DNA from: Alphaproteobacteria bacterium
Lineage (GTDB): Bacteria; Pseudomonadota; Alphaproteobacteria; UBA8366
Length of the DNA stretch: 64,000 nucleotides
Reading direction: 5' to 3'
Assembly (NCBI GenBank): GCA_028281325.1
Contig: JANQKC010000024.1
Location: forward strand, 79,474 to 143,473
Position 1 is the first letter of the stretch. Each line of letters begins with the position of its first letter. A program made the translations under genes and the position numbers. A model generated the notes under the pieces. The model was not told the origin of the DNA and did not search any database. It saw only the letters and a program-made list of their open reading frames with translations. Below, one piece after another: positions 4,560 through 49,674 of the stretch.

Positions 4560-4848
4560 AGTTGATCCGGAATTGGGTGGCGAGGATTTCATGATGGGGA
4601 AAAAGCGAATGAGAGGACAGTCGAATTTATTTGGCGCGCGCATGCGGGACGCCCCGATTACCTGCATCCCATGGCCACAGTTAGATGGTCTCCGGCACGC
4701 TATAATTTCGGCTGGTTGATGGCATTCGACCCAGTGCTTCCGGTGCGGCCATCGATGGCCAATACTCTGTTTACGTGTAAGGCTTTGGGTTTCAACTGGT
4801 TTTGGGCTTCGCTACGGTCACCATCCAAACTCCGCCGGGATTGGTAAA

Positions 4849-5889
4849 TTGAACGAAGAAATAACCGAAACATCACCGACAAGAACATCCAACGACCCGA
4901 TTTGGCCACCGCTGCCAGTCGGTCGAATAGACTGTTACTCTCGCTTGTGGCAACTAGAACTTTGGCTTCGCGAGCTTGTGTATGTGGAACTAAAGTCTCG
5001 ATACGGGGGTCAATGGACGCAGCAGATCGTTGGAGCCAGTATTTATGCCCAAAAGGCTGACAGAAGACTGACACATATGCCAACGCGAGAGCGGAGGCCG
5101 CTAAGTTACATCTCGTTTGATTCCCTGGTCAGGACAATAAGCAGACGTCGGCACCTATTTGCACCTTACCTCCCTATACGTTCGATCTGGGATGCCAAGC
5201 TAGATGAGGTGCGCCAAATCCGGAACCGTGTGGCCCACTTTCGACAGGGAAACGATGGGGATCTTCAGCGCGTCGATCAGCTATTAACTGATATTGACCC
5301 GGGGATTTGGCGCTTTTGCACCTCATACAATGATCATTTCCCAATTCTTCCTCCGAGTCGGGAGAAAGTTATAAAACAATTTATTGAACTGGATCCCTTC
5401 CCGTGGAGTCAGGTAGGTGACGGAGCATGGTCACGTGTCGGTATGGCCAGCCCCGATATGTTGTTAAGTGCGAATATTGAAGTGATTAGGCGACCGTGGC
5501 TTCGAGCGAAGTATCAAGGGCAAGTCGCCGGAAAATACGGATATCTTTTTGATATTAATATTCATGCAAGACAAAACAGGGTTTTCGAATATAAGAATTT
5601 TCTCAAAAACACTACTCATATTCACGATAGATGCTGCCATATTTTGCTCGATTCGTTCGGTACGACGATACGTGCGACATTGCCCTCCGTTTTGGGTGCT
5701 GCACAGATAACGGACACTGTTAACACGCTTATTGAGATGGGTAGGAGTGCGCTTAGACCGTCTCAAACTTTGCTGGAGATAAATAGGGTCGATTCATTAG
5801 CTAAAGACTGGCCCGAGTATGTCCTAGGTCCGGACCACCCGTTCTCTTTTCTCGGCCCAGATATGCCGTGCAAAATTTTCAGCATCTAA
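4849..5889 (+). CDS. HEPN-domain protein (Swt1-like, R-x4-H motif RNRVAH at 5221..5238) with an uncharacterised C-terminal half
   Basis: 346-aa ORF in the low-GC island with TTG start. It carries the canonical HEPN RNase motif R-N-R-V-A-H-F. The start codon is uncertain. Confidence 0.5.
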   Translation: MNEEITETSPTRTSNDPIWPPLPVGRIDCYSRLWQLELWLRELVYVELKSRYGGQWTQQIVGASIYAQKADRRLTHMPTRERRPLSYISFDSLVRTISRRRHLFAPYLPIRSIWDAKLDEVRQIRNRVAHFRQGNDGDLQRVDQLLTDIDPGIWRFCTSYNDHFPILPPSREKVIKQFIELDPFPWSQVGDGAWSRVGMASPDMLLSANIEVIRRPWLRAKYQGQVAGKYGYLFDINIHARQNRVFEYKNFLKNTTHIHDRCCHILLDSFGTTIRATLPSVLGAAQITDTVNTLIEMGRSALRPSQTLLEINRVDSLAKDWPEYVLGPDHPFSFLGPDMPCKIFSI

Positions 5890-6079
5890 GTGAATGCCGA
5901 TGTAATGATCAGCAGGCCGTTTTGGTGCTATTTCACTATGAAAAAATTGAATGCTGTAGCTGACCGAAAATTACGATGTCTTTGATAGTTGTTAGGACAA
6001 AGAAATTGTCTATTTGCAATAAGTTAAGGGTTGAGATGCAGTGTCATCCTGACTTGTATTGACCCGTAGATTCGACTGC

Positions 6080-6559
6080 TCACCTTAGGCCTGCCGCGTC
6101 CAACTGTCGTAGCAACAACGATGCGAGTGCTAGATGATCCAAGCAAGTGTCCGGATCGTCCGTCATTCCACTCGTATGCCCTCTCGGGTTTCGGATGCCC
6201 AGCATTGCGCCTGCGAACAAGAACTTGAAACCCTCTTGTTCATCCTTTTCAGACCTTGTCATCCCTGGATTTAGTGACACTTTTGGCGAACTTCCTCCGA
6301 GGGCGCTCATCATCAACTTGGTACCGTGGCTCGATGCTCCGGAGATACGCTGTATTTCTTCATCAACAAATTTGAAGGCCTCAAAAGTTGCTTGTGCACA
6401 GTGGCCATTATCAAATAGTCGCCTAACATCGTTCGGAAGGTCTGTATGGAGATTTCGCTCGTCAAAGGAATGTGCACTCGAGGGCCTGTCTACTCCCGCT
6501 TCAGTAAAGCGGTGCGCATTTCTTGCGATTCTTTCGAAGTCTTCGAAGTTACTCGCCAT
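6080..6559 (-). CDS. Hypoth_Ymh/TIGR02391-like HEPN protein (R-x4-H motif RNPRGH at 6176..6193)
   Basis: 159-aa ORF with the AMLGIRNPRGH motif. It overlaps the upstream gene by 11 nt, so they form an operon. Low GC. Confidence 0.5.
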   Translation of the reverse strand: MASNFEDFERIARNAHRFTEAGVDRPSSAHSFDERNLHTDLPNDVRRLFDNGHCAQATFEAFKFVDEEIQRISGASSHGTKLMMSALGGSSPKVSLNPGMTRSEKDEQEGFKFLFAGAMLGIRNPRGHTSGMTDDPDTCLDHLALASLLLRQLDAAGLR

Positions 6560-7226
6560 CGATTAGGTTTTTTCGAATACTTCGGAAGATCCTGTCATAT
6601 GTTTTTTGATCACCATCAGCCGGTAGGTTGACCTCTATACGAACAGTAAGTCCCACTCGGTGTTCTGGTTTCTCGGTTGTGCCAGTCGTATCTTTCTTTG
6701 ACTTCACAGATGCTGTGACCCGTTTCTTAGAGGATCTATCCGCACCCTTTTTCGATACCGGCCTGCGCTGATTGGTCTCTCGTGTTATTGGTACTTCCGC
6801 GTGACCTGAAAGTGCAGCGAGGTAGGTGAAAGTCCCAGCCTGTCTGGTTCCAACAATCTCGCTCGAATGATCTGAAGTGCGGAAGAACTGAGCTAAACTC
6901 GATCGATCCATATTCCACGCGTCGTCACCATGTAATTCAAATAGTTCCTCGTAAGCGGTCCGCACAATTTTCTCGAACTCTTTCTGAAACTCCTCGTCCT
7001 TGTGTTGAATGAAAGCGTTCGCGCATTCATCAACCTTCCTGCCTTCCTCATCAACAATGCCGAGGAATTTCAGCACATTGATGACGTAGCTTTCATTCTT
7101 CGGTGCCACGCCAAGCTTGCGAAGGGTTTCAGCTGTCACCTCTTGGGGAAAACTTCGACGCCGAAGGTGGTCGATCGTCTTTACCAGAGGGCCTGCGGAA
7201 GCTACGTACGGATACTTGTTTGCCAT
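6549..7226 (-). CDS. DUF5343-like protein, upstream partner of the HEPN gene
   Basis: N-terminus MANKYPYVASAGPLVKTI...FPQEVTAETLRKLG resembles DUF5343 from memory. The C-terminal half is a Lys/Ser/Thr-rich low-complexity tail. Confidence 0.45.
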   Translation of the reverse strand: MANKYPYVASAGPLVKTIDHLRRRSFPQEVTAETLRKLGVAPKNESYVINVLKFLGIVDEEGRKVDECANAFIQHKDEEFQKEFEKIVRTAYEELFELHGDDAWNMDRSSLAQFFRTSDHSSEIVGTRQAGTFTYLAALSGHAEVPITRETNQRRPVSKKGADRSSKKRVTASVKSKKDTTGTTEKPEHRVGLTVRIEVNLPADGDQKTYDRIFRSIRKNLIDGE

Positions 7227-7619
7227 TATACGCTTCGCCTCTATCTAGCACCCATGCTTCGTGTGTTTAGGCAGCCGAACATAGGTAGTATTGTAACATT
7301 ATAAGATTTACTCTCTTTTTGATTGCATAACTCAATTTTAGGCAGAGTGACAAATCCAATCTACTATTTTTAATGTGTAATCAAAGCTCTATGGACGATA
7401 CGGAAAATTAGTGTTGACGATCAGCATATTTGAATCGATAGAAATCTAATAATTACAATATGTTAATAGTAATTCTTAGTTGTATATTTGCTTATTTATC
7501 GGTCGACCTAGCAGATTTTGAAATCGCATTCTCCGAGATTCTCTGCACTATTTGCAGCGACACCGAATCACTAGAACGCTAAATTTCGCACAACAATAGA
7601 CACTTCTGGGTGGGGAAGA

Positions 7620-9218
7620 ATGCAGGCGGATTATGTGATCGTGGGGGCCGGGTCGGCGGGGTGCGTGTTGGCGAACCGGTTGAGCGCCGATGGCGCGCGG
7701 GTCGTGTTGCTGGAGGCGGGGCCGCCCGACCGCAACCCGATGATCCATATCCCGGCCGGGGTGCGCACGCTGATGCAGCATCCAGTGATCAACTGGAATT
7801 ACACGTCGGAGCCCGAGGAAGGCACCGCCGACCGGCGCGTCAACTGGCCGCGCGGCAAGACGCTGGGCGGCTCCAGCGCGATCAACGGCATGCTCTATGT
7901 GCGCGGCAACCCGGCGGATTACGACGGCTGGGCGCAGCGCGGCTGCCGTGGCTGGGCCTATGACGAGGTGTTGCCCTATTTCAAGAAATCCGAGGATTTT
8001 CGCGGCGACGGCGATGCCGCCTACCGCAGCCGGGGCGGCGTGCTGGCGGTCGAGAATTATCGGACGATCCTGCCGCTGACGCATAAGTTCGTCGAGGCGG
8101 CGCAGCAAGCGGGGTTCCCGCTGACGCCGGATTACAACGGCGCGCAGCAGGAAGGCGTCGCCTATTCGCAGATGACGCGGAACAAGCGCTTCCGGGCGTC
8201 GACCGCGCGCAGCTTCCTGGCCGAAGCGCGGCCGCGCGAAAACCTGGAGGTGGTGACCGAGGCCGTCGGCACGGGCTTGCTGTTCGACGGCACGCGTTGC
8301 GTCGGCGCGACCTACCGGCAGGGCGGTGAAGATAAAGAGGTGCGCGCCAATCGCGAGGTCATCGTCTCCGGCGGCGCGGTGAACTCGCCGCATCTTCTGC
8401 ACGTCTCGGGCATCGGCCCCGCCGACCATCTGCAATCCATCGGCGTGCCGGTGCGGCACGACCTGCCCGGTGTCGGCGGCAACCTGCAGGACCACTACGT
8501 GGTCCGTATCTCGCACCGGGTCGAAGGGCTGACGTCGATCAACGAGTTGGCGCGGGTTCCCCGCGTGCTGCCGGAGATCGCCCGGTATTTCCTGTTCGGG
8601 GACGGCGCGCTCACCTTCGGCGTGACGGCGGCGATGGTGTTCACCCGCAGCCGCGAGGGGCTGAGCAGCCCGGACCTGCAGCTCCTTTTCACCCCGGCGA
8701 GCTACGACGCGGTCGAGATCAAGTCCTTCGACAAGGAACCGGGCATGACCATCGCGGTCTGCCCCGTCCGGCCCGAGAGCCGGGGCACGATCATGGCGGC
8801 GAGCGCCGACCCGCTGCAGGCGCCGGCGATCCGGCCGAATTACCTGTCGGCGGAAAGCGACGCCCATGTCCTGCATGCGGGGCTGGAGAAATGCCGCAGC
8901 ATCTTCGCCGCCCCCGCGCTGGCCGAGGTGAGCAAGGGCGAACTCGCGCCGGGGCCGGAGGTGAATTCGGTGGAGACGGTGCGCGAATACACCCGCCACA
9001 AGGGCAACACGCTGTACCATCCGGTCGGCACCTGCAAGATGGGCGACGACCCGATGGCGGTGGTCGACGACCGGTTGCGGGTCCATGGCGTCCAAGGATT
9101 GCGGGTGATCGACGCCTCGATCATGCCGACCCTGACCACCGGCAACACCAACGCGCCCACCATCATGATCGCCGAGAAGGGCGCGGACATGATCCTGGAG
9201 GACAACACGGCGGCGTGA
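7620..9218 (+). CDS. GMC-family oxidoreductase (choline dehydrogenase-like)
   Basis: N-terminal FAD fold [19 protein letters not shown], full-length GMC architecture and a good SD (gggtggggaaga). Confidence 0.85.
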
Positions 9219-10308: not shown

Positions 10309-10492
10309 TCATCCCCGTGAAAACGGGAATCCATGCGATCCGGTGCCTGGTTTCCCGCTTTCGCGGGAATGACGACGCATGGCGAAGGCAATATGGATTT
10401 GTGCGTAATCGGCATGCTTCGACAGGCTCAGCATGAGGGTTGAGCCAGCTAGAGGCAGAACACGATCCTCATCCTGAGCCCGTCGAAGGATG
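10309..10492. repeat. Mosaic palindromic intergenic repeat (REP/RIME-like), copy 1, with modules A' and A (cccgYgaaaRcggg hairpins) plus B (catgcttcgacaggctcagcatgaggg) and inverted B'
   Basis: The same modules recur at 45101..45212. It fills the whole gap between convergent genes and forms long hairpins. The minus-strand translation gives the spurious MLSLSKH ORF. Confidence 0.6.
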
Positions 10493-32920: not shown

Positions 32921-32994
32921 TCTGGATGGGAGGACTCGAACCTCCAACAGCTGAGTTAAAAGCTCAGAACTCTAACCAATTGAGCTACATCATG
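32921..32994 (-). tRNA. tRNA-Lys(UUU)-like sequence with a defective acceptor stem (possible pseudo-tRNA)
   Basis: T arm GGAGG-TTCGAGT-CCTCC, anticodon arm CTGAG-CTTTTAA-CTCAG and D arm GCTC...GAGT are all present. Acceptor pairs 2-71 and 3-70 mismatch. The 5' end overlaps the CCA of the adjacent tRNA-Met. Confidence 0.4.
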
Positions 32995-33067
32995 GAGCCG
33001 ATGACGGGAGTCGAACCCGCGGCCTGCGGATTATGATCCGCCGCTCTACCATCTGAGCTACATCGGC
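32993..33067 (-). tRNA. tRNA-Met(CAT), elongator-like
   Basis: Reads GCCGATG-TA-GCTC-AGATGGTA-GAGC ... GCGGG-TTCGACT-CCCGT-CATCGGC-T-CCA, with a perfect acceptor stem. By my reading the anticodon loop is 6 nt (TCATAA) rather than 7. Confidence 0.6.
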
Positions 33068-39502: not shown

Positions 39503-39784
39503 GCAGAGTTCCTTCGGTCGAAAATTAGCGGTTGCAAATGGCAATTCGGAATCACCGCCCTAGTTTTTTTGTCCAGGGGAGGACTATTATGGTCCGGACG
39601 ACTTTCCGATTGCACTGTCTATAAGCATTGGTTCGGTCAATTGCACGGGCGAACCGCTCCGGGCGCAAGGCCATGCGCGCGCATTCCTACAGTTGAGGCG
39701 CGCTGGTTTTGTATTGGCCGCCTCTGCTGCTATAGAGATTCCAATTGAAGCATGAAGCACAACCGACGAGGGAGAGTACCAACG

Positions 39785-40642
39785 ATGCTTAAGAGATTCT
39801 TCGCCGCAATGATCCTGATCTTCGGGTTCGGGTCCGCCGTCGCGGCCGAAACATTCGTCTTTACCGCGATCCCCGATCAGGACGAAACGCGCTTGAAAGA
39901 GCGTTTCGGAAAGATCGCGGACTATCTGTCCAAGGAATTGGATACGACGGTCAAATACGTGCCGGTGAAAAGCTATGCGGCGGCGGTGACGGCCTTCAAG
40001 AACAACCAGGTGCAGCTCGCCTGGTTCGGCGGCCTGTCCGGCGTGCGCGCGCGGGCGTCGGTGCCGGGCTCGGTGGCGATCGCGCAAGGCTATGAAGACC
40101 AGTTCTTCGAAACCTATTTCATCGCGAACGAAAAGGCGGGGCTCTCCCTGACCAAGGAGTTTCCGAAGGAAATTGCCGGCAAGACCTTCACCTTCGGGTC
40201 GAAGGGGTCCACGTCCGGCCGTTTGATGCCCGAGTTCCATATCCGCCGAAACTTCGGCAAGACGCCCGACAAGGTGTTTGAGCGCGTCGGTTTCAGCGGC
40301 GATCACTCGCGCACGATCGCGTTGGTGCAGTCCGGCGCCTATCAGGTCGGCGCGGTGAATTACAAGGTTTGGAAAAAGGAATTGGATGCCGGCAAGATCG
40401 ATCCCAAAAAGGTTTCGATCATCTGGCGGACGCCGCCTTATCCCGACTATCAGTGGAGCATTCGCGGCGACGTGGATCAGAAATTCGGCGCGGGCTTTCA
40501 GAAGAAGGTGACGGACGCCTTATTGAATATGAAGGACCCGGCGCTGCTCGAGTCCTTTCCGCGCAGCAAGTTCATTCCGGCGACCAACGACGACTACAAG
40601 ATGATCGTGGATACCGGAAAGGAAATCGGTCTGATCGACTGA
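39785..40642 (+). CDS. ABC transporter substrate-binding protein, PhnD/SsuA-like (putative selenium oxyanion-binding)
   Basis: Signal peptide and PhnD-like fold; GAGGGAGAG SD. It heads an operon that ends in the selD fusion. Confidence 0.7.
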   Translation: MLKRFFAAMILIFGFGSAVAAETFVFTAIPDQDETRLKERFGKIADYLSKELDTTVKYVPVKSYAAAVTAFKNNQVQLAWFGGLSGVRARASVPGSVAIAQGYEDQFFETYFIANEKAGLSLTKEFPKEIAGKTFTFGSKGSTSGRLMPEFHIRRNFGKTPDKVFERVGFSGDHSRTIALVQSGAYQVGAVNYKVWKKELDAGKIDPKKVSIIWRTPPYPDYQWSIRGDVDQKFGAGFQKKVTDALLNMKDPALLESFPRSKFIPATNDDYKMIVDTGKEIGLID

Positions 40643-41298
40643 TGGCGCTTGTCGACCTCACCCTCGCGTCCGCGGGCTATAACGGCGCGAACGTCCTGCA
40701 CGACGTGTCGTTGTCGATCGAACGGGGCGAGAAGGTCGCACTGGTCGGGCGGAGCGGGGCTGGCAAGTCCACCCTGCTTCGGCTGATCTACGAGCGTATC
40801 GACGGCGAGGCCGCGATGGTTCCGCAGGAACTCGGCCTCGTCCGTGCGCTCACCGTGTTTCACAACATCTATATGGGGCAGCTCAACTGCCACAGCACCT
40901 GGCGCAACGTGATGAACCTCGTGCGCCCGATGCAGCAGGAAGTCGAAAACATTGGCGGCATCGTGAAGACGCTTGGCCTGGAGAACGAGATGTTCTCCGC
41001 TGTCGGCGCGTTGTCCGGCGGACAGCAGCAACGGACGGCCGTGGGCCGGGCCCTGTATCAGCGGGCAGACATTCTGCTCGGCGACGAGCCCGTCTCGGCG
41101 GTGGACGAGCATCAATCCCGGTCAATTCTGGAAAGCATCGCCGACGCGAAACCCACGGTCATTCTGGCGATGCATGACATCGATCTCGCGCTCGCCTATT
41201 CCAACCGCGTCATCGGGTTGGATGCCGGGCGCATCGTGATGGACGAGTCGACCGCCGGCATGAAGGCGTCCGACCTCGACCTTCTCTATCGAGGCTGA
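40642..41298 (+). CDS. ABC transporter ATP-binding protein (PhnC-like)
   Basis: Walker A GRSGAGKST and LSGGQQQR signature. Its start overlaps the SBP stop by 1 nt (TGATG). Confidence 0.8.
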   Translation: MALVDLTLASAGYNGANVLHDVSLSIERGEKVALVGRSGAGKSTLLRLIYERIDGEAAMVPQELGLVRALTVFHNIYMGQLNCHSTWRNVMNLVRPMQQEVENIGGIVKTLGLENEMFSAVGALSGGQQQRTAVGRALYQRADILLGDEPVSAVDEHQSRSILESIADAKPTVILAMHDIDLALAYSNRVIGLDAGRIVMDESTAGMKASDLDLLYRG

Positions 41299-41303
41299 GC
41301 GGC

Positions 41304-42800
41304 ATGCAGGCGGTTTGGCGTTACTCTCCGGCGGTTCGGACCAGCCTGATATTCGTCGGTATCGCCTTTCTCTGCCTGATCTTCGCCGACATTTCGATTT
41401 CGACGGTGAACCCGTGGACCGAGATGGGTCGTTTGCTGCTGGGAGTCGTGACCCCGGACTTCCTGGCCACGGAAAGTCTGGTCAACGCCCTGGTGCAGAC
41501 CGTCGCTTTCGCCATCCTGGGCGTCGTCGTTGGAAATATCGCCGGGTTTTTCCTGGCGCTGATTTTTCATTATCGCGCGGTGCGCGTCGGCTGCGCCTTC
41601 GTGCGCGCGATCCATGAGCTGTTCTGGGCGCTGATCTTTTTGCAGATTTTCGGCCTGTCGCCGATCACCGGCATCCTCGCCATCGGGATTCCCTATGCGG
41701 GGATCATCGCGAAGGTCTATGCCGAGATTTTGGAGGAAGCCGACACCACGCCGCTGAAGGCGGTGCCGCCGGGCAGCACGGCGACCTCCGTCTTTATCTT
41801 CGTGCGGTTGCCGGACGTCTGGGCGCATTTCAAGACTTACTCGCTCTACCGGCTGGAATGCGGCTTGCGGTCGAGCGCGGTGCTCGGGTTCGTCGGCCTG
41901 CCGACGTTGGGCTACTACCTCGAAACGGCGTTCCGCCAAGGCCATTATTCCGAAGTCTCCGCGCTGCTGATCCTGTTCTATATTGTGATCGCGAGCATGC
42001 GGGTGTGGATGCGCCGCAACCTGCTGCCGCTCTATATCCTGGGCGCAATCCTGCTGTTGCCGTGGGGCGGACACGAAATCTACGCGGACAACATCGTCCG
42101 GTTCTTCACCCAGGACATCGTCCCGCAGCCGTTGCGCGACGGCGTGTTCGAGCCGGGCGCGCTGTCCGGGTTCGGCGACTGGCTGTCGGTATTGTTCGTC
42201 GAACAGGCGTTGCCCGGTGCGGTCGACACGCTGCAACTGACGATGATCGCGCTGGTCGCGACCGGCGTCCTGGCGCTGGTCTTTTTTCCGCTGCTGTCGC
42301 CGCTGTTCTTCGGCCGCGGCGGCCGTCTCGGCGGGCATGTGTTTTTGGTGGTCGTGCGATCGACGCCGGAATACATCCTGGCCTATGTCTGCCTGCAGCT
42401 TTGGGGGCCGTCGATGTTGCCCGCGATCATCGCGTTGTCGCTGCACAACGGCGCGATCATCGCGCATCTGATTGGCCGCTACACCGAACATATGAAGGTG
42501 CGGGTCGATGCGCCGCGTGGGCTCAATCTTTACTTTTACGAATCGGTGCCGCGTGTCTATGGGCAGCTCCTGGCGTTCCTTTTCTATCGCTGGGAAGTGA
42601 TTTTACGTGAGACCGCAATTCTCGGCATGTTGGGCATCGCGACGCTCGGCTTCTATGTGGACAGCGCCTTTGCGGATATCCGGCTGGACCGCGCGCTGGT
42701 GCTGATCCTGTTCACGGCGGCGCTGAATATCTGCGTCGATGCGTTGTCGCGGCATATCCGGGCGCGGCTCCGTCTCAAGACGACCATCGAACATGGGTGA
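41304..42800 (+). CDS. ABC transporter permease, duplicated PhnE-like (two permease domains in one 498-aa chain)
   Basis: Two consecutive six-helix PhnE-like halves. Confidence 0.75.
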   Translation: MQAVWRYSPAVRTSLIFVGIAFLCLIFADISISTVNPWTEMGRLLLGVVTPDFLATESLVNALVQTVAFAILGVVVGNIAGFFLALIFHYRAVRVGCAFVRAIHELFWALIFLQIFGLSPITGILAIGIPYAGIIAKVYAEILEEADTTPLKAVPPGSTATSVFIFVRLPDVWAHFKTYSLYRLECGLRSSAVLGFVGLPTLGYYLETAFRQGHYSEVSALLILFYIVIASMRVWMRRNLLPLYILGAILLLPWGGHEIYADNIVRFFTQDIVPQPLRDGVFEPGALSGFGDWLSVLFVEQALPGAVDTLQLTMIALVATGVLALVFFPLLSPLFFGRGGRLGGHVFLVVVRSTPEYILAYVCLQLWGPSMLPAIIALSLHNGAIIAHLIGRYTEHMKVRVDAPRGLNLYFYESVPRVYGQLLAFLFYRWEVILRETAILGMLGIATLGFYVDSAFADIRLDRALVLILFTAALNICVDALSRHIRARLRLKTTIEHG

Positions 42801-45070
42801 TCCTCGTGCAATCGACCACACCGATCCTTAAAGACCTCGTTCTCGTCGGCGGCGGACACAGCCATGTCGGCGTGCTGCGGTCCTTCGGCATGAAGCCGAT
42901 CCCGGGCGTCCGCCTGACGGTCCTCTGCCGCGACGTGGACACGCCCTATTCGGGGATGTTGCCAGGGTTGGTCGCGGGGCATTACACCTTCGAGGAGACC
43001 CATATCGATCTCGGCCCGTTGGCCCGCTTCGCCAAGGCGCGCTTCTACAACGACGATGTGATCGGCATCGACCCGCGTCAGCGGTTGGTGATCTGCAAGG
43101 ACCGCCCGCCGGTCTCCTACGACATGCTGTCGATCAACGTCGGGTCCGCGCCCGCGACCTGGGAGACGCCGGGCGCCGACGGCAACGTAGTGCCGGTCAA
43201 GCCGATCAACCGGTTCGTCGCGCATTGGGAACGCCTGCGCGAACGCATCCTGTTGCGCGAGGACCCGGTGCGGATCGGTATCGTCGGCGGCGGCGCGGGC
43301 GGCGTCGAACTGCTGCTCGCCATCCAGTACCGGTTGAAGAGTCTATTGGCCGGGCAAGGGCGCACCGACGCGCATTTGGAGTATCACCTGATCAGCGAAG
43401 AGTCGGACATCCTGACCACGCATAACCCGCTGGTCCGGTCCAAGTTCCGGCGCATCTTCGCCGAGCGCAGCATCAACTTCCACGCGGATACGCAGGTCGA
43501 GTCCGTGACGCCGGGTAAGGTCCAGGCCGCGAACGGCGACACCATTGCGTTGGACGAAATCCTGTGGGTGACCCGGGCGGGCGCCGCGCCGTGGATCAAG
43601 GAATCCGGACTGGCGGTTGACGAATACGGTTTTATGCAGGTCGGCGACACGCTGCAATCGACCTCGCATCCGGAAATCTTCGGCGCGGGCGATATCGCGG
43701 CGATGGTCAATCATCCGCGCCCGAAAGCGGGCGTCTTCGCGGTGAGGCAAGGGCCGCCACTGACCCGAAACCTGCGGCGTATGCTGGTCGGCAAGTCCGC
43801 GCGGCCGTTCACGCCGCAGCGGGAATGGCTTAGCCTGATCAGTACCGGCGATAAATACGCGGTTGCCTCGCGATCCAAATGGTCGGTCGAGGGCAAGCTG
43901 GTCTGGCGCTGGAAGGACTGGATCGACCAGCGCTTCATGAAGAAGTTCAACGAATTGCCCGAAATGGAGACGGAGGAAAAATCGGACGTGCCGCGCGGCC
44001 TGGCGGGCGACGAGGTGATCAAGGAAATCTCCGCCGTCGCCATGCGCTGCGGCGGCTGTGGCGCGAAGGTGGGTGCCACGGTGTTGCAGCGCGCGCTGTC
44101 GCAGCTAAAGCCGGTGGCGCGCGACGACGTGTTGATCGGCCTGCACGAACCGGACGACGCCGCGGTGGTCGAGGTGCCGCCCGGCAAGGTGATGGTGCAT
44201 TCGGTCGATTCGTTCCGCGCCATCGTCGACGACCCGTATCTGTTCGGCCGCATCGCCGCCAACCACAGCCTCGGCGATATCTATGCGATGGGCGCGGACC
44301 CGCAGACCGCGCTCGCCATCGCCACCGTGCCCTACGGACTGGAGGAGAAGGTGGAGGACGTGTTGTCCCAGATGCTGACCGGCGCGATGGAGGTCTTGCA
44401 GGAATCGAACACCTCGTTGGTCGGCGGTCATACCAGCGAAGGCGCGGAGCTGTCGCTGGGCTTTTCCGTGAACGGCCTGATCGACCGAGAGAAGGTCTTG
44501 CGCAAGGGCGGCATGCAGTCGGGCGACCGGCTGGTGCTGACCAAGGCGATCGGAACCGGCACGCTGTTCGCTGCCGACATGCGGCTGAAGGCGAAAGGCC
44601 AGTGGATCAAGGGGGCGCTCGCCTCGATGCTGCTGTCGAACTACGAGGGCGCGCACTGCCTGTCCGACCACGGCGCAAATGCATGCACCGACGTGACCGG
44701 CTTCGGGTTGTTGGGGCATCTGGTCGAGATGACCAAACCGTCCGGCGTCGACGTGGAACTCGATCTCGGCGCGATCCCGTATCTGGACGGCGCGCGGGAG
44801 ACGGTGGCGGCCGGCATCACCAGCACCTTGCAACCGCAGAACCTGCGGCTCCGCCGCGCCATTTCCAATATCGCAGAGGTCGGCGACGACCCGCGTTTTC
44901 CGTTGATCTTCGATCCGCAGACTGCCGGCGGCTTGCTGGCCAGCGTGCCGCAGGACCGGGCCGAGGATTGCGTCGGCGCGTTGCGCGATCTGGGATATGA
45001 CCGGACGGCGATCATCGGCACCGTGTTGCCCGAGGGCAACCGGTTGGAACCGATTACGGTGCGGGCGTAG
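42797..45070 (+). CDS. selD: Fusion of a pyridine-nucleotide-disulfide oxidoreductase ('N-terminal to SelD' domain) with selenide,water dikinase SelD (Cys-type); the senC equivalent
   Basis: N-terminal LVLVGGGHSHVGVL FAD/NAD fold. The C-terminal half from about 43980 is canonical SelD (AMRCGGCGAK at 44042..44068, with TGC/TGT and no TGA). It overlaps the permease stop by 4 nt (ATGA). Confidence 0.8.
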   Translation: MILVQSTTPILKDLVLVGGGHSHVGVLRSFGMKPIPGVRLTVLCRDVDTPYSGMLPGLVAGHYTFEETHIDLGPLARFAKARFYNDDVIGIDPRQRLVICKDRPPVSYDMLSINVGSAPATWETPGADGNVVPVKPINRFVAHWERLRERILLREDPVRIGIVGGGAGGVELLLAIQYRLKSLLAGQGRTDAHLEYHLISEESDILTTHNPLVRSKFRRIFAERSINFHADTQVESVTPGKVQAANGDTIALDEILWVTRAGAAPWIKESGLAVDEYGFMQVGDTLQSTSHPEIFGAGDIAAMVNHPRPKAGVFAVRQGPPLTRNLRRMLVGKSARPFTPQREWLSLISTGDKYAVASRSKWSVEGKLVWRWKDWIDQRFMKKFNELPEMETEEKSDVPRGLAGDEVIKEISAVAMRCGGCGAKVGATVLQRALSQLKPVARDDVLIGLHEPDDAAVVEVPPGKVMVHSVDSFRAIVDDPYLFGRIAANHSLGDIYAMGADPQTALAIATVPYGLEEKVEDVLSQMLTGAMEVLQESNTSLVGGHTSEGAELSLGFSVNGLIDREKVLRKGGMQSGDRLVLTKAIGTGTLFAADMRLKAKGQWIKGALASMLLSNYEGAHCLSDHGANACTDVTGFGLLGHLVEMTKPSGVDVELDLGAIPYLDGARETVAAGITSTLQPQNLRLRRAISNIAEVGDDPRFPLIFDPQTAGGLLASVPQDRAEDCVGALRDLGYDRTAIIGTVLPEGNRLEPITVRA

Positions 45071-45100
45071 GAACCTCGTTCCGTTATTGCCGTTTGTATT

Positions 45101-45212
45101 GACCTCACCCTGAGCGTGTCGAAGGGCCTTCGGAGCGTGGCATGCTTCGACAGGCTCAGCATGAGGGTGGTGCATGCCTAGCTAAGTTATTACCGCGAAA
45201 GCGGGAATCCAG
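45101..45212. repeat. Mosaic palindromic intergenic repeat (REP/RIME-like), copy 2, with B' inverted module, B module (catgcttcgacaggctcagcatgaggg at 45141..45167) and A-type hairpin (ccgcgaaagcggg)
   Basis: Shares modules with 10309..10492. It lies between convergent selD-fusion and senB-like genes. Confidence 0.6.
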
Positions 45213-45218
45213 TATTCG

Positions 45219-46184
45219 CTACCCAAGAATGTGCAACAAATCCCGCCACGCCGCTTCTTCCCGCTCCGGCTTGAACAGGTCGGCGCGCGCGCGGCATTGG
45301 CGCGTTAGCGTCTTCAGGAAATTCCGATCGTGTTCGACCCTGTCCAGGCAGGCCGCCAGGGCGGCGGTGTCGCCGACCGGGAAAAATCCGGCATAGTCGT
45401 CGCCCAGCAGCCCGACCGATCCTGAAATGTCCGATGCGATGACCGGGACGTCCGCGGCGACCGCTTCGGACAGCACGTTCGCGCCGCCCTCCATGATCGA
45501 ACTCAACACCATCGCGTGGGACGAATCGAAAAGCCGGCGTACCTGCCATCCTTGCGCTTCGCCGCGCCAGTCGTATCGGAGATTGGCGGCCATCTCCTGC
45601 CGCGCGCGCTCGGCCCAGTTCCCGTCATGCGCCTTGCCCAGATGCACGATCCGGACCCGCGAATCGCTCGGCAGCAACCGCGCGGCCTCGGCGGCACGCA
45701 ACGGATCCTTCTCGTCGCGTAGATGACCGATCACACAAATATCGACGGTGCGCCGCGACGGGCGGCGGGTCCGGTTGAGCGGCAAGGCCGATTGGTGGAT
45801 GACATGAAGCTTTTCGTGGAACCGATCCGGTATCTCCCGGTGCACGAGGCCGTGCAGGCACACCAGCGCGTCGGCGAGTTCCATGGAGCGATGGGTCTCG
45901 TCCGGATGGCTGCGTTGAAACTTGTAGATGTCGGTTCCCGCCAGCAGGACGATCAGCGGGCGATCGGGGTACCGCTCGTGGAAACGGATGATCGATCCGG
46001 CGCTGCGCCAGGCATGGACGGCGATCATCGCGTCGACCGATTCGTTCTCGTACTCGGTCGCGACGATCACCTCATGACCGAGACGGCGCAGGATATCCTG
46101 CCACCGCACCGCCGTCCTTCTGTTGCCGTCGCGCGACTGTTTGCCTGCGGGCGTGACAAGGCTAATCTTCAAGCCGGTCCGCAT
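45219..46184 (-). CDS. senB: Small glycosyltransferase of the selD-associated family (selenosugar synthase SenB-like)
   Basis: About 320-aa GT-B-like protein (MRTGLKISLVTPAG...). Genomic context is SelD on one side and an EgtB-like gene on the other. The start is uncertain, with a TTG at 46172 possible. Confidence 0.55.
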   Translation of the reverse strand: MRTGLKISLVTPAGKQSRDGNRRTAVRWQDILRRLGHEVIVATEYENESVDAMIAVHAWRSAGSIIRFHERYPDRPLIVLLAGTDIYKFQRSHPDETHRSMELADALVCLHGLVHREIPDRFHEKLHVIHQSALPLNRTRRPSRRTVDICVIGHLRDEKDPLRAAEAARLLPSDSRVRIVHLGKAHDGNWAERARQEMAANLRYDWRGEAQGWQVRRLFDSSHAMVLSSIMEGGANVLSEAVAADVPVIASDISGSVGLLGDDYAGFFPVGDTAALAACLDRVEHDRNFLKTLTRQCRARADLFKPEREEAAWRDLLHILG

Positions 46185-46198
46185 TAGGTGGTTTGCCC

Positions 46199-47512
46199 AT
46201 GACTGAACCCGTCCCCACGTCCCGCTTGATCGACATGATGACGAGCGCGCGCCGCCGCACGCTGGAATTGGTTCAAGGGCTGACGCCGGACCAGTTCATT
46301 GGCCCGAAACTGCCGACGCTTAATCCGTTGATCTGGGAAATCGGGCATGTCGGCTGGTTCTATGAAAATTTCATCTTGCGGCGATTGTACAACCAAGAGC
46401 CGATGCTCGCGACCGGAGATTCGCTTTATGACTCGATCGCAATCGCGCATGAAACGCGGTGGGATTTGCCGGTCCTGCCGTTGAACGAAATCCTTGCCTA
46501 TATGCAGGACGTGCAGGACGCGTTGATCGACCGCTTGGGCGACAAGGATATGGCGGACGAACGGCACAGTTATCTCTACCAGTTCACCGTCTTTCACGAA
46601 GACATGCACACCGAGGCCTTTACCTGGGCGCGGCAGACATTGGGATATCAGACGCCGGTCTTCGAGGGCGGCCCGGTCGATCGCGCTGCGCCGCAGACCG
46701 GGTCATTGTCCGGCGATGTGGCGATCATGGGCGGCACCTTTCGGATGGGTGCGGAGAAGAGCGCGCCGTTTCTGTTCGACAACGAGAAATGGGCGCGTCC
46801 CGTAACCGTCGCACCGTTCAAGATGGCGCGGGCGCCGGTTACCAACCGCGCATTTGCCGAATTTGTCGCGGAGGGCGGTTACCGAACCGAATCCTTCTGG
46901 GACGCCGATGGCTGGGCCTGGCGGCAAGACGCGGTGGTGGAACATCCGGTCTATTGGGTGCCGGACGAGCATGGCGGTTGGGGCGTTCGGCAATTCGATC
47001 GCGTCGTCGACCTGCCGCTCGACCAGCCGGTCATCCACGTCTGCTGGCATGAAGCGAACGCCTACTGCCGCTGGGCGGGCCGGCGCTTGCCGACGGAAGC
47101 GGAATGGGAGTTGGCGGCGACGACGGTGCCGGAAACCACCGACGGCGTTTTGCAGAAGCGCCGGTATCCGTGGGGCGACGAGGCGCCGACGCCGGACCGT
47201 GCCAATCTCGATGGGTTCGCGCTTGGCTGCGTCGATGTCGCGGCATATCCGGCGGGCGACAGCGCCTATGGCTGCCGTCAGATGATCGGCAATGTCTGGG
47301 AATGGACGCAGGACGTCTTCAAGCCGTTTCCGGGTTTCGCGCCCGACGATTACAAGGAATACTCCCAGCCGCTGTTCGATACGACACGGGTCTTGCGGGG
47401 CGGTGCGTGGACGACGCGGGGGCGGATGATCACGTCCCTTTATCGCAACTATTTCGGGCCGGACCGGCGCGACGTTTTCGCCGGGTTCCGGACCTGCGCG
47501 TTGTCCGACTAA
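46199..47512 (+). CDS. senA: EgtB-like C-Se/C-S bond-forming enzyme (DinB_2 N-terminal domain plus FGE-sulfatase domain); selenoneine synthase SenA-like
   Basis: WEIGHVGWFYENFIL and FHEDMHTEAF (DinB_2 His triad), then GGTFRMG, TEAEWELAA, GNVWEWT and RGGAW (FGE-sulfatase fold). AGGTGG SD sits 8 nt before ATG 46199. Confidence 0.65.
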   Translation: MTEPVPTSRLIDMMTSARRRTLELVQGLTPDQFIGPKLPTLNPLIWEIGHVGWFYENFILRRLYNQEPMLATGDSLYDSIAIAHETRWDLPVLPLNEILAYMQDVQDALIDRLGDKDMADERHSYLYQFTVFHEDMHTEAFTWARQTLGYQTPVFEGGPVDRAAPQTGSLSGDVAIMGGTFRMGAEKSAPFLFDNEKWARPVTVAPFKMARAPVTNRAFAEFVAEGGYRTESFWDADGWAWRQDAVVEHPVYWVPDEHGGWGVRQFDRVVDLPLDQPVIHVCWHEANAYCRWAGRRLPTEAEWELAATTVPETTDGVLQKRRYPWGDEAPTPDRANLDGFALGCVDVAAYPAGDSAYGCRQMIGNVWEWTQDVFKPFPGFAPDDYKEYSQPLFDTTRVLRGGAWTTRGRMITSLYRNYFGPDRRDVFAGFRTCALSD

Positions 47513-49674
47513 CCCGCGTCGCGTTTCACGATCAGGGCGTCGACGATCGACACGCCCTCGCCGGCCGGATGAACCAGCACGGGGTTCAGGTCGATCTCCG
47601 CGATGGTGTCCGCGTGATCGGCGGCGAGTTGCGACAGTTTCACGATCAGGTCGATCAACGCGTCGATGTCGGCGGCGGGCGCGCCGCGCACCCCGTCCAG
47701 TAACTTCCGGCCTTTCAGCCGGTCCAGCACCTGCGCCGCCGCGTCGGCGGTCAGCGGTACCGGCGAGAAGGCGACGTCGCGCAGCACCTCGACATGGATG
47801 CCGCCGAGCCCGACCATGAGCATGGGGCCGAAGGCGTCGTCATGATTGATGCCGAGGATGATCTCCTGACCTCGCTTCGCCATCGGCTGCACCAGCACGC
47901 CGTGAATGTCCGGGTCGTCGACACCGGAATTCTTGTGATAGGCGATTGCGTTTTCGATCAGCGACGAAAAAGCGTCTTCGACGGCCGCCGGATCGTCCAA
48001 GCCGAGGGCGACCGCGCCTGCGTCGGTCTTGTGTAAGACGTCGGGCGATTGGACCTTGAGGGCGACCGGGCCGCCGATTTCACCGAGCGCCATGGCCGCG
48101 TCCTCCGGGGATTTCGCCAAACGGCCGACCGGAACGGGTATGCCATAGGCGGCGAGGGCCGGCACGGCCTGGTATTCGCAGAGCACGGGGCCCGCGTCGG
48201 CCAACAATGGCGCGGCAGCCTCCTTGGCATTGCCGGACAGTGTCGTGACCGCCGGCGTTTTGAGGAACCGGTCGCGGAAGGCGTGGTAGTCGGCCATCGC
48301 CGCCATGGTGCGGGCGCAGTTCCGCATGTTGGTATAGAGCGGATAGCCGGCGCGGTTCAGCAGTTCCATCGCCGTGCCGCGGGTCAGTGTGTAGCTGCAG
48401 AACAGGATCGGTTTCTCGCACTCGGCGGCGACCCGTTTCAGGTTTTCCTCTTCCCGCTCGTAGCCGGCGGCGTTGCGGGCCGACGTCACCACGATCACCG
48501 AATCCACTTCCGGGGATTGCGCGACCATCCCCGCGAAATTTCCATAGCCGACTTCCCGGATCGCCTGCGCGGTGCCGTCCACCGGATTCTGCGACGTGCC
48601 GTAGGGCGGCAGATATTCGTCGATCACCGCGCGGGTCTCGGCGTCCAAGGGCGGCACCACGAGGCCGGCCGCTTCGCAACTGTCGGCCATCCATCCGCCG
48701 CCGCCGCCCGATCCAGTGGCGATGCCGACCCGCTTGCCCATCGGCAGTTTGTTGCGGTAACGCGAGAACCCGGCTGCGACGTCGACGATATCCTCGATGT
48801 CGTAGCCTTCGATCACGCCGTACCGGTCGAACATCGCCTTATAGGCCGTGTAGGCGCCGGTCATGGCCGCCGTGTGCGAGGCGGCGGCGCGTTGTCCGGC
48901 TTCCGACCGGCCGATCTTGGTCAGGATGATCGGCTTACCGGCGCGCAGAGCCTTCTCGGCGATGGGGGCGAAGCGTTCCGGGTTCTTGATGTCCTCCATG
49001 AACATCAGGATCACCTCGGTCTTGCCGTCGTCGAGCATGTAGTCGACAAAATCCAAACCCGAGAGGCAGGCTTCGTTTCCGGTGGTCATCACATAGCTGA
49101 ACGGCAGTTCCTTGGGACGGCCCCGATCGTAGAAGGAGAAACCGATGCCGCCGCTTTGCGCCGTGACGCCGATATAGCCGTCGGACCGGTGCGGCGGCAC
49201 GAGCGGCAGGTCGGGGTCGTCGACCGTGGCGCTGAAGGTGGCGCAGAGCGGCGCCAGCATGTTGGCGAAGCCTTCGGAATTGGGGCCGCCGATGGCGAGG
49301 TCGTATTTCTCGGCGATCGCCCGGATTTCATCCTGCAGGGCATCGCCCGCGTCGCCGGATTCCTCCGCGAAGCCGGAACTGATGATCATGGCCGCGCGCA
49401 CGCCCGCTTCGCCGCAGTCGGTCAACGCGTCCGCGACATTTTCTGCCGGGATCACCAGGACCGCCAGATCGACGCGTTCGGGGATGTCGGCGATCGTCCG
49501 GTAGGTTTTCAGGCCGTTGATCTCATCGTTGCTGCGGCTGACGGGATAGATGTTGCCGGGAAATTCGTGGCAGCCGAGGACATGCATGATGCGACCGCGG
49601 ATGATATGCGCGTTCGGCGAGGCGCCGATGACCGCCACGGATTTCGGGGACATGAGCGCGGAGATGTCGGGCAT
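47509..49674 (-). CDS. ADP-forming acyl-CoA synthetase (CoA-binding plus ATP-grasp; acetate--CoA ligase [ADP] family)
   Basis: N-terminal CoA-binding SVAVIGAS and C-terminal ATP-grasp; 721 aa. Confidence 0.8.
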   Translation of the reverse strand: MPDISALMSPKSVAVIGASPNAHIIRGRIMHVLGCHEFPGNIYPVSRSNDEINGLKTYRTIADIPERVDLAVLVIPAENVADALTDCGEAGVRAAMIISSGFAEESGDAGDALQDEIRAIAEKYDLAIGGPNSEGFANMLAPLCATFSATVDDPDLPLVPPHRSDGYIGVTAQSGGIGFSFYDRGRPKELPFSYVMTTGNEACLSGLDFVDYMLDDGKTEVILMFMEDIKNPERFAPIAEKALRAGKPIILTKIGRSEAGQRAAASHTAAMTGAYTAYKAMFDRYGVIEGYDIEDIVDVAAGFSRYRNKLPMGKRVGIATGSGGGGGWMADSCEAAGLVVPPLDAETRAVIDEYLPPYGTSQNPVDGTAQAIREVGYGNFAGMVAQSPEVDSVIVVTSARNAAGYEREEENLKRVAAECEKPILFCSYTLTRGTAMELLNRAGYPLYTNMRNCARTMAAMADYHAFRDRFLKTPAVTTLSGNAKEAAAPLLADAGPVLCEYQAVPALAAYGIPVPVGRLAKSPEDAAMALGEIGGPVALKVQSPDVLHKTDAGAVALGLDDPAAVEDAFSSLIENAIAYHKNSGVDDPDIHGVLVQPMAKRGQEIILGINHDDAFGPMLMVGLGGIHVEVLRDVAFSPVPLTADAAAQVLDRLKGRKLLDGVRGAPAADIDALIDLIVKLSQLAADHADTIAEIDLNPVLVHPAGEGVSIVDALIVKRDAG

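What the first reader, a model, noticed from the sequence alone, without database searches (positions are those of the whole stretch)
45219..47512. Selenoneine-type gene pair (senB-like glycosyltransferase and EgtB-like senA) arranged divergently with only about 14 bp between start codons
The selenoneine pathway reported in 2022 uses SelD-like SenC, a small glycosyltransferase SenB making a selenosugar, and EgtB-like SenA making the C-Se bond on hercynine. Those genes are normally co-directional. Here senB is on the opposite strand from senA, and the start codons lie at 46184 and 46199. Each promoter must therefore lie inside the other gene. Alternatively the true senB start is the TTG at 46172, which gives about 27 bp. 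senA has a textbook SD (AGGTGG) while senB has none. This is an unusual regulatory geometry for a biosynthetic pair.
Basis: partly seen in the sequence, partly recalled or inferred. Interest (0 to 1): 0.7.

Follow-up and report, generated by a model that had tools for sequence, protein, structure and literature searches.

The report
Ordinary selenoneine gene cluster, canonical head-to-head layout
The two genes are real selenoneine-pathway genes (senB and senA) placed back to back with 14 bases between their start codons, but this layout is the normal one for the pathway in every related bacterium sampled, so the finding is a correctly identified, already known system and not an oddity.

Summary
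senB (45219-46184, minus strand) and senA (46199-47512, plus strand) are divergent, with 14 bp between ATG start codons. AGGTGG lies 7 nt before the senA ATG, and senB has no Shine-Dalgarno sequence. Both proteins pass NCBIfam's curated cut-offs (SenB 414/300 bits, SenA 486/420). SenA carries the selenosugar and hercynine active-site motif, not the EgtB or OvsA motif.

The cluster is larger than reported. A selenate-type ABC transporter and a SenC (an oxidoreductase-SelD fusion) form a plus-strand operon at 39752-45070 that converges on senB.

In 69 of 69 related genome loci senA and senB are divergent, with a median spacer of 26 bp. The same holds in three RefSeq/GenBank plasmids and in three loci of the Variovorax-type clade (14 bp or overlapping starts). 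The geometry is canonical, not unusual.

One modest new point: senB codons 2-4 (AAG ATT AGY) are conserved at synonymous sites only where senA sits head-to-head. Their complement, TAATCT (46163-46168), is a candidate senA -10 box embedded in senB. This is inferred, not shown.

Overall: a known system and low interest.

The parts
39752..40642 (+). Periplasmic substrate-binding protein of a putative selenate ABC transporter; first gene of the transporter-senC operon
   Evidence: TIGR04553 scores 388.6 bits against a cut-off of 250. The same gene is present in most related loci.
40642..41298 (+). ABC transporter ATP-binding subunit (PhnC-like)
   Evidence: ABC_phnC and other ABC ATPase models hit this ORF. 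The start is set at the ATG overlapping the SBP stop (TGATG) and matches the 218-aa gene call in relative L081.
41304..42800 (+). ABC transporter permease (PhnE-like, two repeats)
   Evidence: TIGR01097 matches in two stretches, E=1.2e-61, just below the cut-off. The gene call is identical in L081.
42797..45070 (+). SenC-type selenophosphate synthetase, with an N-terminal pyridine nucleotide-disulfide oxidoreductase domain fused to SelD. Its GTG start overlaps the permease stop by 4 bp.
   Evidence: TIGR03169 scores 498 bits (cut-off 310) and TIGR00476 selD scores 300.8 (cut-off 125). The Cys and Lys of the E. coli SelD GCGCK loop are kept, as CGGCGAK. Public gene calls give 757 aa.
45103..45167 (.). 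Imperfect palindrome (REP-like element) in the 148-bp gap between the convergent senC and senB stops; probably a bidirectional transcript end
   Evidence: Fold z-scores are -3.1 on the plus strand and -2.6 on the minus strand. A second copy lies in another convergent gap at 10418-10487.
45219..46184 (-). senB, selenosugar synthase; the only gene of its transcription unit
   Evidence: TIGR04348 scores 414.2 bits (cut-off 300). The PDB match to V. paradoxus SenB has E=7e-54. The equivalents of N20, T23, K158, E231 and E239 are conserved.
46163..46168 (+). TAATCT, a candidate -10 element for senA lying inside senB codons 2-4 counted from the ancestral start (inferred)
   Evidence: Synonymous-site conservation of AAG-ATT-AGY is tied to the head-to-head arrangement. 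No consensus -35 was found.
46185..46198 (.). 14-bp spacer between the two start codons; contains the senA Shine-Dalgarno AGGTGG (46186-46191)
   Evidence: Read directly from the sequence. The spacer is identical in length in relatives L001, L002 and L081.
46199..47512 (+). senA, a non-haem-iron selenoxide synthase (selenoneine synthase). Its stop overlaps the stop of a convergent acyl-CoA synthetase gene by 4 bp.
   Evidence: NF041186 scores 486.3 bits (cut-off 420), while EgtB TIGR03440 scores 335.3, below its cut-off of 360. The composite active-site motif is H-H-H-H-Y-Y-N-Y-F.

Best explanation
This is a standard selenoneine (sen) biosynthetic locus of an alphaproteobacterium.

Pathway. 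An ABC transporter of the putative selenate type imports selenium. SenC, here fused to a flavoprotein-type oxidoreductase domain and co-transcribed with the transporter, makes selenophosphate. SenB transfers the selenium to a UDP-sugar to give a selenosugar. SenA uses iron and O2 to join that selenosugar to C2 of hercynine, and the selenoxide product collapses to selenoneine. The enzyme steps are inferred from membership in characterised families, not shown here.

Gene layout. senA and senB face away from each other with 14 bp between start codons. This head-to-head layout with a 14-45 bp spacer is the conserved, canonical architecture of sen clusters in Proteobacteria. It is not a peculiarity of this locus.

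Promoters. Because the spacer is so short, the promoter elements must overlap the 5' coding ends of the partner genes. The best candidate is a senA -10 box, TAATCT at 46163-46168, written on the opposite strand of senB codons K-I-S. It would give a senA leader of about 24 nt carrying AGGTGG. This promoter assignment is an inference.
For: Family membership above curated cut-offs: SenB 414/300, SenA 486/420, SelD domain 301/125, TIGR03169 498/310, selenate SBP 389/250.

SenA-specific residues: His at the EgtB Arg87 site and Phe at the Asp416 site, Tyr/Asn/Tyr at the hercynine-binding triad, three iron-binding His residues and the catalytic Tyr (criteria from 10.1101/2022.04.13.486033 and PMC11030361).

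SenB catalytic and donor-binding residues are conserved (PMC10891094). The SelD Cys and Lys are conserved.

Architecture. 69/69 related loci are divergent, with a median spacer of 26 bp. The same holds in RefSeq-annotated Methylorubrum populi pMPOP01 (27 bp), Burkholderia SFA1 (overlapping starts) and Hydrogenophaga (84 bp). It also holds in three loci 68-84% identical to V. paradoxus SenB (14 bp or overlapping).

Embedded signal. 38/42 K-I-S N-termini next to a divergent senA read AGATTA, against 3.3% expected from codon usage in the same genes. Only 2/8 do where senA is not adjacent.
Against: No chemistry or transcription data exist for this locus.

No egtD (hercynine supply) was found among the 20 window ORFs tested, so hercynine must come from elsewhere in the genome.

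By whole-sequence score the nearest solved structure is OvsA (291-300 bits), not V. paradoxus SenA (218 bits).

For the promoter model, the consensus scan finds no sigma-70 promoter. TAATCT matches only 3/6 of TATAAT, and no conserved -35 sits at the right spacing. The codon statistics are not corrected for shared ancestry. Actinobacterial sen clusters were not sampled.
Confidence: 0.88

Rival explanations
1. One reading: the divergent 14-bp arrangement is an unusual, locus-specific regulatory geometry that departs from normally co-directional sen genes.
For: In the Variovorax-type clade senB and senC are co-directional and overlap. The pathway is described as a 'three-gene cassette'. Together these may suggest a single operon.
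Against: senA is divergent from senB in every locus examined that holds both. That covers 69 MAG loci, 3 plasmids and 3 Variovorax-type loci, with spacers mostly 14-45 bp.
Confidence: 0.03
2. The EgtB-like enzyme is an OvsA-type enzyme acting on histidine, so the locus makes ovoselenol (or 5-selenohistidine) rather than selenoneine.
For: The best PDB sequence matches are OvsA-YNF (299.6 bits) and wild-type OvsA (291.3 bits), ahead of V. paradoxus SenA (218 bits). No egtD was found in the window.
Against: The three residues that switch OvsA to SenA chemistry (M401/Q430/A431 to Y/N/F, PMC11030361) read Y/N/Y here. The engineered YNF variant scores higher than wild-type OvsA. No methyltransferase (OvsM) is in or next to the cluster. 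NF041186 SenA scores above its cut-off.
Confidence: 0.04
3. The enzyme is a sulfur-specific EgtB and the locus contributes to ergothioneine.
For: TIGR03440 EgtB gives 335 bits, and M. thermoresistibile EgtB gives 267 bits in the PDB search.
Against: The EgtB score is below its curated cut-off of 360. The thiol-binding Arg87/Asp416 pair is replaced by His/Phe, as in all SenA proteins. The gene sits with senB, a SelD fusion and a selenate transporter.
Confidence: 0.02
4. The synonymous conservation of senB codons 2-4 (AAG ATT AGY) serves senB's own translation initiation or mRNA 5' structure. Alternatively it is a regulator-binding site. In either case it is not the senA -10 box.
For: senB lacks an SD in this lineage, so its 5' coding sequence may matter for initiation. 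No -35 partner was found and TAATCT is a weak -10. Loci without an adjacent senA also changed start codon (TTG) and gained an upstream SD, so the senB initiation context changed at the same time.
Against: AAG is preferred over AAA, and AGY over TCN. A simple A/T-rich or low-structure rule does not predict this. The motif is relaxed where senA is not head-to-head. Its distance to the senA ATG is tightly kept.
Confidence: 0.4
5. The true senB start is the TTG at 46172, giving a 317-aa protein like most homologues and a 26-bp spacer.
For: Most homologues are 317 aa and begin MKISL at this position. In 55 of 70 loci this codon is ATG.
Against: The closest relatives L001 and L002 have CTG there and conserve the ATG four codons upstream. 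Public gene calls give 321 aa.
Confidence: 0.2

Closest known systems
Variovorax paradoxus sen cluster (senA, senB, senC; Kayrouz et al. 2022, 10.1101/2022.04.13.486033) and its close relatives
   Same: It has the same three enzyme families and an associated selenate-type ABC transporter. senA and senB are head-to-head with about 14 bp or overlapping starts. The SenA and SenB active-site residues are the same.
   Different: In the Variovorax-type loci senC is a stand-alone 356-aa SelD homologue, co-directional with senB and overlapping it, and the transporter lies downstream of senA. Here SenC is a 757-aa oxidoreductase-SelD fusion. It is co-transcribed with the transporter and converges on senB. 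SenB is about 40% identical to the Variovorax enzyme by eye in the alignment (186 bits). SenA has Tyr instead of Phe396.
Methylorubrum populi BJ001 plasmid pMPOP01 senA/senB (RefSeq annotation)
   Same: It is alphaproteobacterial, is annotated by PGAP as senA and senB, and has the two genes divergent with 27 bp between them. SenB is 54.5% identical.
   Different: There is no senC or transporter next to the pair on that plasmid, and it is flanked by IS elements.
ovs (ovoselenol) cluster, OvsA of Halomonas utahensis (PMC11030361)
   Same: OvsA is the closest solved structure by sequence score. The cluster uses the same senBC-type selenosugar cassette.
   Different: OvsA has M/Q/A at the substrate triad and works with the methyltransferase OvsM. 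The window enzyme has Y/N/Y, and no methyltransferase was found.
EgtB type I (Mycolicibacterium thermoresistibile, PDB 4x8b)
   Same: It has the same DinB + FGE-like fold family, the iron triad and the catalytic Tyr.
   Different: Its thiol-binding Arg87/Asp416 pair is replaced here by His/Phe, and the window protein scores below the EgtB cut-off.

Membership tests
SenB (TIGR04348 selenosugar synthase) | Whole-protein score above NCBIfam's curated cut-off | tested here: met
   414.2 bits against a cut-off of 300, with full-length match 7-318 to 1-309/310
SenB (TIGR04348 selenosugar synthase) | Catalytic Lys158 and sugar-donor residues N20/T23/E231 plus E239 of V. paradoxus SenB (PMC10891094) | tested here: met
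   The window has K159, N21, T24, E232 and E240, all invariant in alignment A1. The EGGAHV motif reads EGGANV. V157 is E158 and T83 is A82.
SenB (TIGR04348 selenosugar synthase) | Genomic association with a SelD homologue and an EgtB-like NHISS | tested here: met
   The SelD fusion ends 148 bp from the senB stop, and senA starts 14 bp from the senB start
SenB (TIGR04348 selenosugar synthase) | Makes a selenosugar from selenophosphate and a UDP-sugar | not testable with these tools
   Needs an enzyme assay
SenA (NF041186 selenoneine synthase) | Whole-protein score above the curated cut-off, and higher than for EgtB | tested here: met
   SenA 486.3 bits against 420; EgtB TIGR03440 335.3 bits against 360
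SenA (NF041186 selenoneine synthase) | Three-His iron triad and catalytic Tyr | tested here: met
   The motif columns read H..H.H and Y
SenA (NF041186 selenoneine synthase) | EgtB Arg87/Asp416 replaced by His and Phe/Tyr (selenosugar rather than thiol donor) | tested here: met
   His and Phe at these columns. The criterion is quoted.
SenA (NF041186 selenoneine synthase) | Hercynine-binding triad Tyr366/Asn395/Phe396 | tested here: met
   The triad is Tyr/Asn/Tyr, an aromatic kept in place of Phe. The same state occurs in 30 of 71 related loci.
SenA (NF041186 selenoneine synthase) | Hercynine available (egtD in the genome) | tested here: inconclusive
   No Methyltransf_33/EgtD among the 20 window ORFs scanned. 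The rest of the genome was not available. Most sen clusters lack a local egtD.
OvsA (ovoselenol selenoxide synthase) | Met401/Gln430/Ala431 histidine-binding motif | tested here: not met
   The window reads Tyr/Asn/Tyr
OvsA (ovoselenol selenoxide synthase) | Associated N-pi-methyltransferase OvsM | tested here: inconclusive
   None in the cluster or among the ORFs scanned, but OvsM can be encoded elsewhere
EgtB type I | Arg87/Asp416 thiol-binding pair and score above the TIGR03440 cut-off | tested here: not met
   His/Phe at these sites, and 335.3 bits below the cut-off of 360
SenC / SelD selenophosphate synthetase | SelD model above cut-off, with the N-terminal-loop Cys and Lys | tested here: met
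   TIGR00476 scores 300.8 bits against 125. CGGCGAK aligns with E. coli GCGCK.
TIGR04369 oxidoreductase/SelD-related fusion ('not SelD') | Score above the curated cut-off | tested here: not met
   478.3 bits against 700. The protein is instead TIGR03169 N-terminal domain plus a bona fide SelD domain.

The most novel reading that the evidence does not exclude
The head-to-head senA/senB junction is a conserved, ultra-compact bidirectional control region in which the senA -10 element (TAATCT) is dual-coded inside senB codons 2-4. This would explain why AAG-ATT-AGY is frozen at synonymous sites across alpha- and gammaproteobacteria only when senA is adjacent. It would couple expression of the selenosugar maker to that of its consumer.
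Probability: 0.35. Interest if true: 0.35.

Novelty: already known. Interest (0 to 1): 0.15.

Why it matters
It matters little beyond correct annotation. The locus adds one more alphaproteobacterial selenoneine cluster to the more than 800 already reported, and its layout is the standard one.

Two points may be useful to specialists. First, the head-to-head senA/senB junction with a 14-45 bp spacer is a constant of proteobacterial sen clusters. It could therefore serve as a mining signature and as a natural compact bidirectional promoter. Second, this clade couples SenC, fused to a flavoprotein-like reductase domain, to the selenate transporter in one operon. That arrangement hints at channelled uptake, reduction and activation of selenium.

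Tried and rejected
- The sigma-70 consensus scan of 44900-47700 found no promoter-like site, against about 0.5 expected.
- The Rfam gathering scan of the whole window found only two tRNAs, so no riboswitch or sRNA lies at the junction.
- Folding of the junction on either strand is no better than shuffles (z -1.0 and -0.1), so there is no structured leader.
- I considered a leaderless senB. Several gammaproteobacterial relatives show TAAAGT-like hexamers at -12 to -7 of the senB ATG (by eye). The window has GCAAAC there, and many relatives have an SD-like stretch instead, so I did not pursue this for the window.
- The search for a conserved -35 at 16-18 nt from TAATCT gave a mean of 1.3-2.7 matches of 6, no better than other offsets.
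- The repeat finder reported no inverted repeat in 45000-45300, although folding shows an imperfect palindrome.
- One literature query failed on a short search term. Another, on sen regulation, returned only irrelevant papers. The SenC engineering paper gave no domain information.
More distant clades were reached only through plasmids and three context look-ups. Actinobacteria were not sampled.
Full report
**1. What is in the sequence**

The first is 45219-46184 on the minus strand (321 aa, ATG). The second is 46199-47512 on the plus strand; the mechanical ORF begins at a TTG at 46193. The junction reads ...CAT TAGGTGGTTTGCCC ATG.... The senB ATG occupies 46184-46182 on the minus strand, the senA ATG is at 46199, and 14 bases lie between them. 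AGGTGG (46186-46191) sits 7 nt before the senA ATG. There is no purine-rich Shine-Dalgarno sequence before the senB ATG. An in-frame TTG at 46172 is a possible alternative senB start.

**2. Gene identities**

The minus-strand protein matches NCBIfam TIGR04348, 'selenoneine biosynthesis selenosugar synthase SenB'. It scores 414 bits against a curated cut-off of 300, over the full length of the model. It aligns with the crystallised V. paradoxus SenB at E=7e-54.

The residues shown by mutagenesis to matter in that enzyme are N20, T23, K158, E231 and E239 (PMC10891094). Their equivalents here are N21, T24, K159, E232 and E240, and all are invariant among 19 homologues.

The plus-strand protein matches NF041186, 'selenoneine synthase SenA', at 486 bits (cut-off 420). 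The EgtB model TIGR03440 scores 335 bits, below its cut-off of 360.

One result needed care. Among solved structures the best sequence matches are the ovoselenol enzyme OvsA (300 and 291 bits) and the type I EgtB (267 bits). V. paradoxus SenA scores only 218 bits. I therefore applied the active-site criteria published for this enzyme class:

- **Selenium donor.** SenA replaces EgtB's thiol-binding Arg87/Asp416 with His and Phe/Tyr (10.1101/2022.04.13.486033).
- **Histidine versus hercynine.** OvsA differs from SenA at three residues: M401/Q430/A431 in OvsA against Y/N/F in SenA. Swapping these residues converts OvsA to SenA chemistry (PMC11030361).

In a MAFFT alignment the window protein reads His-His-His (iron), His (Arg87 site), Tyr (catalytic), Tyr/Asn/Tyr (triad) and Phe (Asp416 site). 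The Variovorax-type proteins read the same with Phe in the triad. OvsA reads M/Q/A and EgtB reads R...W/D. The engineered OvsA-YNF variant scores higher against the window protein than wild-type OvsA does. The enzyme is thus a SenA by every sequence criterion available. None of 71 related loci carries the OvsA motif.

**3. The rest of the locus**

It contains:

- a substrate-binding protein of the 'putative selenate ABC transporter' family, 39752-40642 (TIGR04553, 389 bits against 250);
- an ATPase, 40642-41298, whose start overlaps the preceding stop;
- a permease, 41304-42800;
- a 757-aa protein, 42797-45070, overlapping the permease stop by 4 bp.

In the 757-aa protein the N-terminal half is the TIGR03169 pyridine nucleotide-disulfide oxidoreductase domain (498 bits against 310). 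The C-terminal half is SelD (301 bits against 125). The SelD half keeps the Cys and Lys of the E. coli catalytic loop.

This plus-strand operon converges on senB. The 148-bp gap between the two stops holds an imperfect palindrome at 45103-45167 (z = -3.1 and -2.6). A second copy of the palindrome lies in another convergent gap at 10418-10487. The senA stop overlaps the stop of a convergent ADP-forming acyl-CoA synthetase gene by 4 bp.

senB is therefore a lone gene on its strand, with senA at its head and senC at its tail. No egtD or methyltransferase was found among the 20 further ORFs scanned. [quoted passage not shown]

**4. Is the geometry unusual?**

It is not. A scan of one genome per species with a SenB alignment returned 594 confirmed hits, and the best 80 loci were kept. 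I located SenA, SenB, SenC and the binding protein in each locus by tblastn. In all 69 loci that hold both N-termini, senA is divergent from senB. Measured to the common MKISL start, the median spacer is 26 bp. The range is 17-730 bp, but nearly all spacers fall in 17-45 bp. In almost all of these loci senC converges on senB, as it does here.

The arrangement extends beyond this clade:

- **Plasmids.** RefSeq annotates divergent senA and senB 27 bp apart on Methylorubrum populi pMPOP01. A Burkholderia plasmid has overlapping starts. A Hydrogenophaga plasmid has an 84-bp gap.
- **Variovorax-type clade.** I searched with the V. paradoxus SenB sequence and looked up three relatives that are 68-84% identical to it. 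In all three senA is again divergent from senB, by 14 bp or with overlapping calls. In two of them senB and a stand-alone senC are co-directional and overlap by 4 bp.

The head-to-head junction is the canonical form. The closest relative, at 87% identity, has the identical 14-bp spacer.

**5. Which senB start?**

Most homologues are 317 aa and start at the position of the window's TTG. In the two closest genomes, however, that codon is CTG and the ATG four codons upstream is conserved. Public gene calls also give 321 aa. The ATG at 46184 is the more likely start (about 0.8). This lineage shortened an ancestral spacer of about 26 bp to 14 bp by a four-codon N-terminal extension.

**6. How the junction may work (inferred)**

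With 14-26 bp between starts, and an SD for senA inside that spacer, promoter elements must overlap the partner's coding sequence.

Consensus scanning finds no sigma-70 promoter. No Rfam family matches the junction, and neither strand folds better than shuffled controls.

Comparative data give one lead. senB codons 2-4 are AAG-ATT-AGY far more often than codon usage predicts:

- ATT is used in 66 of 80 Ile codons at that position, against 26% of Ile codons elsewhere in the same genes.
- AGY is used in 58 of 58 Ser codons at that position, against 27% elsewhere.

Among K-I-S N-termini next to a divergent senA, 38 of 42 read AGATTA, where 3.3% would be expected. Where senA is absent or more than 60 bp away, only 2 of 8 do (Fisher p = 3e-4, not corrected for shared ancestry).

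On the senA strand this motif reads TAATCT (window 46163-46168), at a near-constant distance from the senA ATG. A start about 7 nt downstream would give a leader of about 24 nt carrying AGGTGG. I therefore propose that the senA -10 box is written inside the first codons of senB.

The support is partial. TAATCT is a weak match to the -10 consensus and no conserved -35 was found. The alternative, that the motif serves senB's own initiation, is not excluded, because the loci that lost the motif also changed start codon and upstream context.

**7. Comparison with what is known, and verdict**

This is a member of the sen system described in 2022, and it passes every sequence-level membership test I could run.

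It differs from the V. paradoxus type in three ways. SenC is fused to an oxidoreductase domain. senC is co-transcribed with the transporter and converges on senB. SenA is globally nearer to OvsA than to the type enzyme. All three features are shared by dozens of alpha- and gammaproteobacterial genomes, and curated models already cover the domains.

The specific claim that made the finding interesting, an unusual divergent geometry, does not hold. I rate the system as already known, with low interest (0.15). The only potentially new element is the dual-coded junction motif, which needs transcript mapping to test.

Noticed in passing
window 45103-45167 and 10418-10487: A REP-like imperfect palindrome (core TTCGACAGGCTCAGCATGAGGG and its near-complement) occurs in two convergent intergenic gaps. 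Three arm matches were found where none is expected by chance. It is probably a dispersed intergenic repeat that acts as a transcript end.
   Followed up: partly
window 4001-8000: A low-GC stretch (0.50-0.53 against about 0.64 elsewhere). Its ORFs have GC3 below 0.5: 4849-5889 has no Pfam match and 6549-7226 is DUF5343. It looks like a horizontally acquired insert.
   Followed up: no
L037 5702-7957, L050 5626-7963 (also L042, L057, L069, L075): A marine Rhodospirillaceae-like subclade has senB directly downstream of, and co-directional with, an amidohydrolase/deacetylase-family metallohydrolase (NF006689, 404-410 bits). senC is nearby but no senA lies within 7 kb. This could be a selenosugar-only pathway or a different selenometabolite pathway.
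   Followed up: partly
L004 2432-2436 and other related loci: In several relatives the convergent senB and senC coding regions overlap tail-to-tail by a few bases. The 2022 mining criterion 'genes that overlap selD by one or more bp' may therefore have captured convergent overlaps as well as co-directional ones.
   Followed up: no
window 46199-47512: By whole-sequence score this alphaproteobacterial SenA is closer to Halomonas OvsA (291-300 bits) and to type I EgtB (267 bits) than to V. paradoxus SenA (218 bits). The SenA family is evidently broad, and OvsA nests near this branch.
   Followed up: partly
window 47509-47512: The senA stop and the stop of the convergent ADP-forming acyl-CoA synthetase gene (47509-49674, minus strand) overlap by 4 bp, leaving no room for a terminator between them. 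The same arrangement is seen in relative L081.
   Followed up: no
L078 (JAIVTC010000119.1): A contig labelled 'Candidatus Bathyarchaeota archaeon' carries a proteobacterial-type senA/senB/senC cluster, with SenB 56% identical to the window's. This is probably a binning contaminant rather than an archaeal sen cluster.
   Followed up: no
window 32921-33067 (-): Two adjacent tRNA genes are the only Rfam matches in the window.
   Followed up: no
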